Below, in pieces: positions 2,743 through 53,271 of a stretch of DNA of 64,000 nt. The notes beneath the pieces are model-generated. The model was not told the origin of the DNA. It did not search any database and saw only the letters and a program-made list of their open reading frames with translations. The stretch covers positions 197,656,001 through 197,720,000 of the forward strand of contig OZ024741.1 in the NCBI GenBank assembly GCA_964016885.1, given 5' to 3'. Numbering within the stretch: the stretch's first letter is position 1; each line of letters opens with the position of its first letter. The translations under genes were made by a program, and so were the position numbers. The DNA is from Eledone cirrhosa (Eukaryota).

Positions 2743-2946
2743 AGGAACGAGTAGGACCCCGACGGCTGAGCTCAAGCCGTTTCGATGGCTAATTCTGTAC
2801 TAAATTAGTTCAGAATTAGCCGCCGAAACGGCTTGAGCTCAGCCGTCGGGGTCCTACTCGTTCCTATTACCCACTCTACTACCCTAAGTATTGAGTACTT
2901 TGGTGCGTTATGGTCCACCTGGTTCCTTACCACATTTCCTTCGTTA
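2743..2946 (+). mobile_element. Short foldback element (PLE pLTR-like): ~60-bp inverted repeat, ~80-bp tail, 3' half of a hammerhead
   Basis: Arms 2741-2801 and 2805-2867; GAAACggct-tgagctc-agccGTC at 2825-2847; (TA)n on both sides; related inverted copies at 8966-9163. Confidence 0.7.
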
Positions 2947-3761
2947 TATATATATATATATATATATATATATATATATATATATATATATATATATATA
3001 CATACATACATATATATACGTATATGTATGTATGTAGTCATGTTCCTTTCCATCATCAATGTATTAGGCATGCATAACTGTGTGCTATAAGTGTTAGTGT
3101 ATGTGTGACTCTTTAAGTACGTGAATAAGTGCGAACAGGAAGGTGTACAATTGTGCTCGCAAATATGATCAAGCACGTTTAAGAATATATAAGAATATAT
3201 ATGAATATGGATTATGTAGATATATTTGCATGAACAGATACGTGCGCTTGTGCATGCGCACTAAGAACACACAAGTCACTACACTAGTTTATTCCATGTG
3301 ACTGTGTATGTGTATGCCTGCTAGAGATTATCCCATAAGTATGCGCATGTATTAAAGTAAATCTGTACATACATAAATGCGTATCTATGTGGGAATATCC
3401 ATGTAAGTGTAAATAACATGCGAATATGCATATGCGTGAGGACACACATATATCCCTCTATATATGTATGAGACAAGAATGGAAAATGCTACTAAAATTG
3501 GATTTGTAAGAAAAGTTATCCCATTCAACCAAAGTCAAAATGCCCACCTCTCTCAGAACTCTCCCCTCTCAGTTCTTATCAAATATATATATCTATTGAC
3601 TTCATCATATAACCACAATTCATGCAACTGTTTATCCGGCAAATATTGTTCAAGGTACCTGTTAGCGGTGATTACCATATTAATTTAAATCTGATTGACT
3701 TTGTCATTTTTCTCACAATAATATAACGCCAGGCCTCAACAGGTGATGTTATATTATATAA

Positions 3762-4145
3762 GGGCGGTGGATTGGCAGTATCGGTAGAGGGTCGGACGCC
3801 ATGCTTTCCAGCATAGTTACGTCCCTTTACGATCTGAGTTCAAGTCCCGCCGAGGTTGACTTTGCCTTTCATCCTTACGGGGTCGATAAAATAAAGTACC
3901 AGTAATGCACTGGGTAATTGCTGGCCTTGTGCCTAATGTAGAAACAGTTATATTATATAAGGGCGGTGGATTGGCAGTATCGGTAGAGGGTCGGACGCCA
4001 TGCTTTCTAGCATAGTTACATCCCTTTACGATCTGAGTTCAAATCCCGCCGAGGTTAACTTTGCCTTTCATCCTTATGGGGTCGATAAAATAAAGTACCA
4101 GTAATGCACTGGGTAATTGCTGGCTTTGTGCCAAAAGTAGAAACA
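3762..4145 (+). mobile_element. Two head-to-tail copies of the tRNA-derived SINE (3762-3946, 3961-4145)
   Basis: A-box-like tggcagtatcgg, B-box gagttcaa(g/a)tccc, shared body; gttatattatataa at 3748, 3947 and 4146. Confidence 0.9.
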
Positions 4146-5959
4146 GTTATATTATATAACATCTGAGGGCTTTGTCATATATCCCAACGTCATGTGACTT
4201 CATTCCAGAGTACTATTTACCCGATGAACTAGGTTTATGTAATTTTCCCCGCATCATATATTTCTATACCCTTCCATGATAAAACAAGAACAACTTATAG
4301 CTCGTTAACCCCACCCCCCACCCCCACCGCACCATTTAAATGTTCGCCTAGGCATGCAACAAAGCACAAAAAGATAACATTGCCTCTCAGCATCTTATTA
4401 AATCGCAACATTCTGAAATATTTATAGTTTTTTTTTATGTTTCCTTTTCATTTTTATTTTTGTTCTTTTGGTGTATTTTTATGGGGGTTTGTTCGTGTTT
4501 TCTTTTCTAAGAAAGCCTATTCCTACTGTCGGCTCTTGTTCTAATTCCCATTGCCAACAGCATAATGGAAACTTGAAACAACGGTTAGTGAAGTTTTCAA
4601 CTTGCAATAAATATGATAATTCTCGTATTGAGTACTTTCTTCTTTTCAGCACAGTTTTTGTTTGACTGATTGCATGTTTGTATAGCTTACGTGAGTAGGC
4701 CTGCGTACCCGTGATTAAAATTGATTCGTTCAATTTGGTTCACGATTTCATAACATTAGGTCTTGGTTAAGTAAATTTGTTTTCTACTGTTATCAATAGC
4801 ACAAAAACAGCGTTATCCAGGATAAAGACGTGTAAAAACCAATGAATTAAACATACATTTGGTATTGGTAATTAATCTTGCCGGTAGAGCTTGCACTATA
4901 TGTAAATAAGATTGTGACAAGTTTGTTTACACAATCTATAAAGCGATATTTACAGTTTCATACCATCTAGTCGTAAATGAGCGAATGTTGATCAACAGAT
5001 ATATATCCACTCCTCTTACCCTGATGCTGAGGCTGCTGTGATCGCTTAAAATACTTACATGGAGACTAAATATACATTAATTATACATGAACATATTCTA
5101 TATAAGTTCATATACGTCTTTCTTCTAATTTCATCATAACTGTAGAACATAATGTGTGAGGTTATCTACAATTATTAAGTGCTTGGAAGATGTAACAGAG
5201 AGTTTCTTGAAGTTTCGATCGTTTAGAGATGTCTCTCCTCTTCAATTGTGTCTGCATCATTGTTGAAAATGTGTCACTATTTATACTATATCATAATTTC
5301 CCGTAGAGAGTTGTTTCGTTTAGAGCTACATTTTTAGGAACGTATCTGGAGAGTTAACCAACATGTTGCTGTATAAGTGTGTATGCATGTGTGTGTGTGT
5401 ATGCACGTGTGTATGTATATGTGTGTATCTATGTATGTGTGTATGTATGTATGCGTGTATGTGTACGTATGTTTGTTATGCTTAGAGTATTGATTTCTAA
5501 CAAGGTAACACATTTTCGGAGAGGTTACAGTCAATTATACTTGACTGGTATTTTGGTTTATCGACTCTGGAAAGATAAACGTCAAGGTTGACATCTGCGA
5601 GACATGAACATAATGAAACACCGCAAGGTACTTTTTATTCAGGATTCTTTTCTATTTCCTAATTAGTGTTTTATATTTTGTTTGCAAGAACAATGCTCTT
5701 AGGTCCATTGAGGTTTCCAGGAATTCTTGGTTTTATCTTTGGTTGTTGTTATTTCCGTTTTGCAGTGGACGGCAATTACGAGAATATTGTATTAAGGAAT
5801 TGATTTTACTTCAAGTTAACACCAGCTATTTTTTATAAATCAGAAATTTGTCTTATTTTGTTACCAACGTTTACTAACCTGTCTATTAATTTATGAATTT
5901 ATTTATTTATGAATTTGTTTATTGATTCATTAAATAATTATTGGTCTGCTATCCGTAAT

Positions 5960-6135
5960 TGAAGCGAGGTCGATGTACAGAATTGATTGAGCGTCAGATA
6001 AAGCACCATTGCGGTATTTATTCTGACTCTGTATGTTTTGTTTAAATCTCGCCGAGGTCAACTTTGCTTTTCATCCTTTTGAAGTCGATAGTCATTTCAC
6101 CAAATGTGCTGGCCTTGTGCTTAAATTAGAAATCA
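5960..6135 (+). mobile_element. Degenerate SINE
   Basis: cgccgaggtcaactttgcttttcatcc...gctggccttgtgc matches the SINE body. Confidence 0.7.
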
Positions 6136-51235: not shown

Positions 51236-51239
51236 ACTA

Positions 51240-52112
51240 ATGACCCAGAAACATGTCAATTGTTCCTCAAAGCCAGCGTTCAACAAACAGGTGACGATTG
51301 ATCACCGGCACGGCACAGCTTCAAATCGGGCCGTTTGTTTACAAACGAATCGAACATTATTATTAATGTTCGATATAACCTATACGTACATATGTATATA
51401 TATATATATATATATGTATGTATGTATGTATGTATGTATGTATGTATGTATGTATGTGTGTGTGTGTGTGTGTGCGCGCGTGTGCATATACATGTGTGTG
51501 TGTACGTGTGTATACTTATATTCATGTATCAGCTGTGTTAGGGAGAGAAATAAAATTCTAATTTTATCTTTAATATTCGGCAAAGCCAGCCGTAACTCGC
51601 TCGGTATGCAAATGAGGCTACTCAGCCGATGTATACTTAAGAAAATACTATATATTTTCAACCTTTCAACACATTGGCAGAGGTATACAGCCCTGATGAA
51701 GGGTCATGACCCAGAAACATGTTGATTGTACCTCAAAGCCAGTGTTGTACAAACAAGTGACGATCGGTCACCGGCACAGCTTCAAATCGTTTACAGTATC
51801 GTTATAGGTAGAGGGTCGGACGGCATGCTTTCTAGCATAGTTACGTCCCTTTATGGTTTGAGTTCAAATCCCGCCGAGGTTATCTTTGCCTTTTATCCTT
51901 ACGAGGTCGATAAAATAAAGTACCAGTAATGTACTGGATAATTGCTGGCCTTGTGCCCAAAGTAGAAACAATTATTAATGTTCAATATAACCCACACGTA
52001 CGTATGTATGTGTATGTATGTGTATGTATGTATATATGTTTATTTGTGTATGTACGTGTGCATACTTACATTTATGTATCAGCAGTGCTAGAGCGAGAAA
52101 TAAAATTCTAAA
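51240..52112 (+). mobile_element. Tandem ~466-bp non-coding units with a hammerhead at the junction; SINE inserted in unit 2 (~51795-51975)
   Basis: atgacccagaaacatg at 51240 and 51706; the units align downstream to gagagaaataaaattctaa. Confidence 0.75.
51686..51730 (+). ncRNA. Type I minimal hammerhead
   Basis: tacagcc-CTGATGA-agggtcatgaccca-GAAA-catg-TT-gattgta; stems II and III are palindromic. Confidence 0.72.
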
Positions 52113-52802
52113 TTTATATATATATATACTGTATATATATATATATATATATATATATATATATATATATATATATATATATATATATAGGGTAAAGGCT
52201 AAAGACTATGGGATTTACACCTAGGTTCCCCTTTGAGACACATTGTGGGCAAGGTTGTAAACCGGCAACCCCACCAAGCTTGCTTGGTGAGGAGGGTGAT
52301 ATTTGGACACCCTGCGGGATGAAATACAGGACCGGGCAAAGGGCGGAGGAACTTAGCAGAGTCAACGGCCATCCAAATAGTACTTGTTTTTCCACCTGGC
52401 AGTGAAAGGCCCCCAGTTGTTGTTACAACACCTTTCTAAGAGAGGGAAACTCTGAAAAAAAAACCTGCGGCTTCGGGAGCATCCGATGATGTTGACAGGT
52501 TTTCCTTTGTGAGTAGTGTTTTAGTGTTTATGATGTTCAAAGAGTGGGATTAGTCGAGTGCAAGGTCTTTCCCCACTTAAAAAACCTTCAAAGCAAAGGC
52601 ATTGCTTGTTCAGGATCTGTTACAAGCGATTGCAATACTCTTAGCAGAGTTTGCAGCCATCATGTATGTATAAAATATGTATATATATATATATATATAG
52701 GGAGTGTAACTTGGAGTTACTGTAGGTTCACCCGGGTGAGCACTCGATGTTTAGGTTCACTTCTGTGTTGAGGTGTAGAGCTATACAGAGTGTATTATAT
52801 TT

Positions 52803-53271
52803 AAAAGATAACAAGGACGATTGGTTACTCCTTCATTACATTTATTGGTAGGTGACGCGCGTTTTGCCACTGATCAGCTCAAGGTTCGATCTGTATCGAT
52901 CTTAATCAACCACAAATATACGCCAATCTGTCTACCGACAATCCACCACCCCCACAACACAACCCATCATAGCCTGCGACCGTCACCACCATCTTATCAT
53001 CACATCCACCCCACATACACTACAGGCGAAAACGTCCCCATGATCTATTCCACCAATCAAAACAAGCCTTATTGACCAACATATGAACTTCTGACTTTAT
53101 CGTATAGCATGTATTCATTTTCTACTAGCATTTTAAGGGGTCCGTCGAGCTGTGGACTATCGAGTCGGGTAAGATCGATACAGATCGAACCTTGAGCTGA
53201 TCAGTGGCGAAACGCGCGTCACCTACCAATAAATGTAATGAAGGAGTAACCAATCGTCCTTGTTATCTTTT
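52803..53271. repeat. ~100-bp inverted repeat (52803-52904 / 53170-53271) with the hammerhead 3' half GAAACGCGCGTC
   Basis: Arms directly visible; motif at 53209-53220; (TA)n on the right, a short TA run on the left. Confidence 0.8.

What the first reader, a model, noticed from the sequence alone, without database searches (positions are those of the whole stretch)
2743..53271. Recurrent tail-out foldback insertions in (TA)n: one architecture shared by coding PLEs and at least six non-coding elements
Seen: nine insertions are inverted repeats with TA-rich flanks (2743-2946, 9219-12240, 16224-17018, 17362-17863, 27484-33680, 33747-39714, 46912-47335, 48273-48672, 52803-53271). In seven of them the 3' ends point outward. 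One arm keeps the full tail, while the other stops ~40-90 nt earlier, often at an AT/TA microhomology. The two members of one family (16224, 48273) stop at essentially the same position. Known: PLEs make inverted pLTRs and favour microsatellites. Inference: both cut strands of a (TA)n target prime on the RNA 3' region, one at the end and one at a fixed internal site. Many small non-autonomous RNAs would then use this route and seed the genome with long hairpins.
Basis: partly seen in the sequence, partly recalled or inferred. Interest (0 to 1): 0.75.

Follow-up and report, generated by a model that had tools for sequence, protein, structure and literature searches.

The report
Penelope retrotransposon ends, one tail each
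These hairpin-shaped insertions in TA repeats are real back-to-back ends of Penelope-like jumping genes, nearly always one long end and one short end, likely made when both cut DNA strands start copying one RNA at two fixed internal points; the layout is already known, and most of the short ones are cut-off ends of coding elements, not separate small RNAs.

Summary
All nine insertions are real tail-out inverted repeats in (TA)n, and eight have one long (L) and one short (S) end. In 134 double-ended copies sampled from this genome, 119 are L/S, 2 S/S and 0 L/L; 13 have an off-site end. Illumina reads show the same junctions, so these are not long-read chimeras. This is the known inverted pLTR with one-sided 'tail' of Penelope-like elements (PLEs), and two internal RT start sites are published in vitro. 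The 'six non-coding elements' are five families. Four of them run into RT/GIY-YIG-type ORFs in longer copies; only family D is a non-coding, retrozyme-like tandem unit. L is internal to the RNA where testable, not its end. Not found in my paper searches: near-exclusive L/S pairing, 2-6 nt TA matches at the start sites (p=1.5e-4), shared variants between arms, and a family-specific 5' stop that resembles a promoter start. Together these favour twin priming on one RNA (inferred). The scan has reported the same thing in other genomes. Verdict: known architecture with a useful quantitative record.

The parts
2744..2944 (.). Family A foldback: S end left, L end right (80-nt tail); truncated 3' end of a coding Hydra-type PLE
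   Evidence: coding copies L286 and L287 have the same L/S layout
8967..9161 (-).
   Evidence: sequence; L end mapped
9220..12237 (+). Family B coding PLE (broken ORF): inverted S arm, direct pLTR reading through L into the ORF, RT, EN, L end
   Evidence: hammerhead-type core 63 nt before S in the family reference
16224..17017 (.). Family C foldback, S left, L right (~90-nt tail)
17362..17865 (.). Family D foldback, both ends near the short site; D is a ~0.5-kb non-coding head-to-tail unit with a hammerhead-like motif (retrozyme-like)
23739..25381 (.). Duplicates of the C and D foldbacks inside the 7.3-kb repeat across the N gap (not independent)
27487..33680 (.). Family E coding PLE foldback: ORF-bearing arm ends at S (left), 1.7-kb inverted arm ends at L (right); a SINE is inserted in the left arm
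33388..33424 (+). TATA-like box (TATAAA at 33390) 31 nt before an initiator-like A (33421), where short family-E arms stop; putative pLTR transcription start (inferred)
33747..39712 (.). Family F coding PLE foldback, 99.3% identical 2.9-kb arms, L left (41-nt tail), S right
   Evidence: (RVT_1 2e-10, GIY-YIG 2.6e-5)
46915..47334 (.). Family G foldback, S left, L right (~50-nt tail); 3' end of a coding PLE
48275..48672 (.). Family C foldback, S left, L right; same S site as 16224
   Evidence: S/(TA)n junction in 2022 Illumina reads
52700..53273 (.).

Best explanation
These are insertions of endonuclease-bearing Penelope-like retrotransposons into (TA)n, each with one long and one short 3' end, likely because the two nicked target strands prime reverse transcription at two different fixed internal sites (L and S, 41-125 nt apart) of usually the same RNA. 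Shown: the two end sites, their pairing, the coding parents and the short TA matches. Inferred: the TA primer end pairs over 2-6 nt with the RNA; each cDNA extends upstream until it aborts or runs off the RNA 5' end (a putative pLTR promoter start 60-260 nt before S); the two cDNA ends are then joined head to head by microhomology or repair. The short 'non-coding' hairpins are mostly such short products of coding elements. One family (D) is a retrozyme-like non-autonomous unit that likely uses the same machinery.
For: (1) Bimodal ends in all young families. (2) 119 L/S, 2 S/S, 0 L/L among 134 double-ended segments; independent choice of site would give about half same-type pairs. (3) Of 111 mapped pairs (116 tried), the S arm reaches further upstream than the L arm in 57, and the L arm stops at or after S in 19, so S is a start site of its own; single-ended S copies are common too. 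(4) Arms of one insertion share variants: family A, 25 pairs, 1.24 differences per 30 nt against 4.35 for shuffled partners, with a minimum of 3.16 in 300 shuffles; family C 0.012 against 0.042. (5) 95 of 96 centres are distinct. (6) 9 of 9 tested sites carry 2-6 nt of TA-alternating match; Fisher p=1.5e-4 against random breakpoints. (7) Arm 5' ends stop at family-specific cliffs: 15 of 25 arms stopping within 10 nt of the cliff start exactly at an A preceded by C, and pairing just upstream is low in C and F. (8) Coding parents have the same layout. (9) In vitro, a PLE cuts and extends both strands, starts at two internal sites that bound the tail, and is modelled as a dimer (PMC11167929).
Against: No RNA data: the runs found held DNA or contigs only, so the start-site reading is untested. 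The cliff base was picked after seeing the histogram, and no cap-derived G was evident (4 of 15). B and G show no clear cliff. Arm similarity is uninformative or absent in F, H and B, one family-A pair (L126) looks discordant, and gene conversion between arms could also homogenise them. In 92 of 111 pairs the L arm passes S, which needs strand displacement or a second RNA. PMC11167929 found the start site not homologous to the cut DNA and saw no strand bias in start-site use. Samples are top-identity hits, not random, and the S/L windows were set from the same data. 13 of 134 double-ended segments have an off-site end.
Confidence: 0.68

Rival explanations
1. One cDNA primed at L folds back on itself (snap-back), copies itself, and the endonuclease cuts or resolves the intermediate at S. 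The tail is then a resolution product, close to the suggestions in PMC8557442 and PMC3846280.
For: It explains one L plus one S, shared variants and near-palindromic centres. 26 of 111 pairs have equal 5' ends, and pair ends are slightly correlated (34% within 10 nt against 27% shuffled, p=0.019).
Against: It predicts that the S arm is nested in the L arm. The S arm goes further upstream in 57 of 111 pairs, and in 19 the L arm holds little more than tail. Solo S-ended copies are common. S is an RT start site in vitro (PMC11167929).
Confidence: 0.15
2. Two separate RNA-protein particles prime the two strands, with some asymmetry that forces one to use L and the other S.
For: It explains overlapping arms without strand displacement (92 of 111). 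One discordant family-A pair; an earlier scan note reports halves from different parents (e1-9539494).
Against: Most family-A and family-C pairs share subfamily variants far more than shuffled partners, although both RNAs could come from one highly expressed locus.
Confidence: 0.12
3. The short hairpins are self-propagating non-autonomous families (SINE-, MITE- or retrozyme-like).
For: Family D: 0 of 30 loci have in-line PLE coding sequence, 14 of 30 monomer starts follow a previous tail, and a hammerhead-like motif passes the scan in 5 of 30 loci. Short transcripts from solo pLTRs cannot be excluded as templates for the other families.
Against: A, C, G and H join RT/EN-type ORFs. Centres are almost all unique. 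End-to-end copying of a hairpin would repeat centres.
Confidence: 0.1
4. Long-read foldback chimeras or assembly artefacts.
For: The window has an N gap flanked by a 99.3% duplicate, and the F arms are 99.3% identical.
Against: Arms diverge by up to 12%. Ends are family-specific and fixed. Raw Illumina reads of another study show the S/(TA)n junction, and short-read contigs hold joints across centres. No single record spanned a whole window locus.
Confidence: 0.02

Closest known systems
EN+ PLE insertions with inverted pLTR and one-sided 'tail' (PMC3846280 passages; PMC8557442 passages incl. Fig. 2 legend; PMC2377424 passages)
   Same: Inverted 5'-truncated copy, partial tandems, tail at only one end, hammerhead motifs in the pLTR, (TA)n targets.
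   Different: Tails here are 41-125 nt, not 30-40 nt. The one-sided rule is counted (119:2:0). Very short double stubs dominate.
PAc (Poseidon, Anolis) in vitro mechanism (PMC11167929; abstract, main text and part of Methods read)
   Same: Both strands are cut and extended, and two internal RT start sites bound the tail.
   Different: The paper reports no homology of the start site to the target and no strand difference. Here the sites carry 2-6 nt TA matches and the two ends are mutually exclusive.
Hydra clade of PLEs (PMC8557442 section 11 read)
   Same: CxCX5C linker (A, C, E, H), DKT (B, C, E), RW(R) motif (A, B, C), C-terminal EN, (TA)n target.
   Different: F (DKG, CxxC in the EN) and G (CX4CxxC linker) look Neptune/Nematis-like. 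No tree was built.
Non-LTR retrozymes (bioRxiv 10.64898/2026.07.22.740005, abstract and passages; PMC7229834 search listing only)
   Same: Family D: non-coding, head-to-tail, hammerhead-like, PLE-style ends.
   Different: D is ~0.5 kb with an 81-102-nt stem II, is dispersed in short partial tandems and foldbacks, and has no tested cleavage.
L1 twin priming (recalled, not read here)
   Same: Both target strands prime on one RNA and give an inversion with 3' ends outward.
   Different: In L1 the internal site varies and the arms do not overlap. Here both sites are fixed and internal, and the arms overlap in 92 of 111 pairs.

Membership tests
EN+ Penelope-like elements | RT followed by a C-terminal GIY-YIG endonuclease | tested here: met
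   F: RVT_1 and GIY-YIG. A and H: weak GIY-YIG, E 0.069 and 0.0037; C, E, G no GIY-YIG hit. All six EN regions align with invariant C, Y, Y-x-G, R, H. RT hits lie in line for A, C, H.
EN+ Penelope-like elements | pLTRs: partial tandem and inverted 5'-truncated copy | tested here: met
   window 9220-12237; L031; L286, L287
EN+ Penelope-like elements | tail at one end only | tested here: met
   119 L/S, 2 S/S, 0 L/L of 134
EN+ Penelope-like elements | hammerhead motif in the pLTR | tested here: inconclusive
   My motif scan passes B, C, E and 5 of 30 D loci; A, F, G, H did not pass. Rfam found no hammerhead at E<=1; isolated folds gave no significant z-score.
EN+ Penelope-like elements | RT phylogeny within the PLE clade | not tested
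   no reference PLE set was at hand; no tree built
Hydra clade (families A, B, C, E, H) | CxCX5C linker, DKT, RWK-like motif, no internal CCHH | tested here: met
   not every motif was seen in every family, and the linker was not read for B
Non-LTR retrozyme (family D) | non-coding head-to-tail unit with a hammerhead | tested here: met
Non-LTR retrozyme (family D) | self-cleavage and circular RNA | not testable with these tools
   no RNA run holds these elements usefully
Independent non-autonomous elements (A, C, G, H) | no coding parent; propagated as a unit | tested here: not met
   coding parents; 95 of 96 centres unique
MITE / TIR DNA transposon | symmetric fixed termini and a constant interior | tested here: not met
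   asymmetric ends and variable centres

The most novel reading that the evidence does not exclude
PLE integration is obligate coordinated twin priming: a protein dimer holds one RNA and hands site L to one nicked strand and site S to the other, using 2-6 nt TA pairing in (TA)n-targeting clades. Priming in the 5' pLTR of the transcript runs off at the cap, so on the order of 10^5 short hairpins in this genome are a fossil map of PLE priming sites and transcription starts.
Probability: 0.45. Interest if true: 0.58.

Novelty: new member of a known kind. Interest (0 to 1): 0.36.

Why it matters
How PLEs make inverted pLTRs and the tail is stated as open in PMC8557442 and PMC11167929. The near-exclusive L/S pairing, shared arm variants and TA matches give sharp predictions for the existing in vitro system. 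These stubs are also abundant: 24 one-sided foldbacks in 400 kb, roughly one per 17 kb, and they could be misfiled as MITEs or SINEs. The architecture is not new, and the scan has already reported it in other genomes.

Tried and rejected
Rfam found no hammerhead or other relevant family, only low-complexity miRNA matches and one tRNA. The DNA search for family A returned nothing, probably because its words are too common; a 17-nt pattern then gave 67,602 matches and 0 for the reversed control. A genome-wide count of pair types was not obtained, so the pairing ratio rests on sampled loci. Cap-G signature: 4 of 15, no signal. A hairpin as the cause of the 5' cliffs is not evident for C and F and is unclear for A, E and H. 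Empty-site alleles were not seen because contigs break at TA runs. Target-site duplications cannot be read inside (TA)n. Runs with small word shares were not used. Paper searches found no paper applying twin priming to PLEs or counting L/S pairs, but subscription papers and supplements (for example Fig. S2 of PMC11167929) were not seen and may cover this. PMC13282606 (passages) mentions PLE abundance only; that the host is octopus-like is my recalled guess, not tested.
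Full report
Observation. Self-BLAST of the window and the sequence confirm nine tail-out inverted repeats bounded by TA runs. They belong to eight families, here A (2744), B (9220), C (16224, 48275), D (17362), E (27487), F (33747), G (46915) and H (52700). 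Mapping ends to natural reference copies shows that eight of nine have one long (L) and one short (S) end; D ends near its short site on both sides. The window lies in a 3.0-Gb genome and has a 7.3-kb, 99.3% identical duplicate across an N gap, so the copies at 23739 and ~24860 are not independent.

Sample from the genome. I fetched 30 loci per family, five longer stretches and 40 stretches of 10 kb at round coordinates. All were top-identity hits except family A (first 30 matches on contig 1), and the family C query included the tail. Splitting these 285 loci and the window at TA runs gave two sharp end peaks per young family (A 47 and 56 of 107, B 22 and 28 of 50, F 16 and 24 of 42, H 27 and 17 of 45). 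D is older and blurred. Of 134 segments with both ends in one family, 119 were L/S, 2 S/S, 0 L/L, and 13 had an off-site end, often an internal TA run. The S and L windows were set from the same histograms. A family-blind scan of the 400 kb found 37 TA-bounded inverted repeats: 24 with a one-sided 26-129-nt overhang, 8 symmetric and 5 with larger overhangs. Raw Illumina reads from another study show the family-C S/(TA)n junction in 2022 reads, and short-read contigs carry joints across family-A centres. This argues against long-read chimeras; no record spanned a whole locus and no empty allele was seen.

What the elements are. B, E and F carry PLE ORFs in the window. Of the five 'non-coding' families, four have coding parents. 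A: L286 and L287 hold RT and EN and are themselves L/S foldbacks. C: L031, L033 and L034. G: L048 and L060. H: L112 and L289. Pfam support for the EN regions is weak or absent, but they align with the Pfam-positive F endonuclease at the catalytic Y-x-G, R and H. A, B, C, E and H show Hydra-clade motifs as listed in PMC8557442 section 11; F and G look Neptune/Nematis-like; no tree was built. D differs: 0 of 30 loci had in-line coding sequence, 14 of 30 monomer starts follow the tail of a previous unit, the five D-start loci with PLE hits have them on the opposite strand, and 5 of 30 pass a hammerhead motif scan. D is retrozyme-like. Hammerhead-type cores lie 33-52 nt (cut site) before S in B, C and E; A, F, G and H did not pass my scan, and Rfam found none.

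Mechanism. L is not the RNA end: B, C and D read through it. Of 116 L/S pairs tried, 111 mapped. The S arm reaches further upstream in 57, the L arm in 28, and 26 are equal; in 19 the L arm stops at or after S. A snap-back copy of the L cDNA cannot make an S arm longer than its template, so S is a priming site. Arms of one insertion share variants (A: 1.24 against 4.35 differences per 30 nt in 25 pairs; C: 0.012 against 0.042). F, H and B give little or no such signal, one A pair looks discordant, and gene conversion is a possible confounder. Centres are unique in 95 of 96 pairs with clean junctions, so hairpins are made at each insertion. All nine tested sites (seven S-type, two L) carry 2-6 nt matching (TA)n, Fisher p=1.5e-4. 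Arm 5' ends pile up against a cliff in A, C, E, F and H but not clearly in B or G, while 6-12 arms per family run far beyond it. 15 of 25 arms stopping near the cliff start at the same A after a C, and in E a TATAAA lies 31 nt upstream. The D. virilis promoter lies in the pLTR (PMC2377424 passages), so run-off at the transcript start is the likely cause. This is post hoc, no cap-G signal was seen, and no RNA data were available.

Relation to what is known. The inverted pLTR with a tail on one side is described in PMC3846280 (passages) and PMC8557442 (passages). PMC11167929 (parts 1-2 of 4 read) shows both-strand cutting and two internal starts bounding the tail. A 2026 preprint treats retrozymes as non-autonomous PLE derivatives (abstract and passages). 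My seven searches found no count of L/S pairing and no use of twin priming for PLEs; supplements and subscription papers were not seen. One search, made after my reading was fixed, returned eight scan notes on other genomes; most give the same reading, including one on pile-up at the RNA start and one with halves from different parents.

Verdict. Real, abundant and of known kind. The added value is the quantitative pairing rule, the TA matches and the putative start-site cliffs. Interest 0.36.

Noticed in passing
window 2453-2727: 3' end of an RTE-like LINE with a classic non-overlapping twin-priming inversion in (TA)n: in other loci (L142, L238) the two parts are colinear with 27 nt between them; here the terminal 96 nt are inverted and those 27 nt are lost.
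   Followed up: partly
window 11933-19247 and 19448-26734: 7.3-kb direct duplicate, 99.3% identical, on both sides of a 200-N gap; probably assembly redundancy.
   Followed up: no
window 3748-4159, 7509-7702, 26762-26960, 29184-29370, 51803-51977, 59033-59224: Many copies of a ~190-bp SINE-like repeat, one inserted in the left arm of family E.
   Followed up: no
window 60246-60865: G-related ends enclosing another inverted repeat with a tRNA-like stretch (Rfam tRNA 40 bits at 60583-60653).
   Followed up: no
L146, L159, L105: Both flanks of an insertion are inverted copies of another family's end pointing into the same TA array; may simply reflect stacking of insertions.
   Followed up: no
L250, L280, L285 (10-kb samples): Three TA-bounded symmetric inverted repeats (149-1100 bp) share the same termini; possibly a true MITE family.
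   Followed up: no
window 41892-42314: PIF1 helicase fragment (E 4e-38), likely a Helitron remnant; further LINE RT fragments at 704-1834 and 45039-46603.
   Followed up: no
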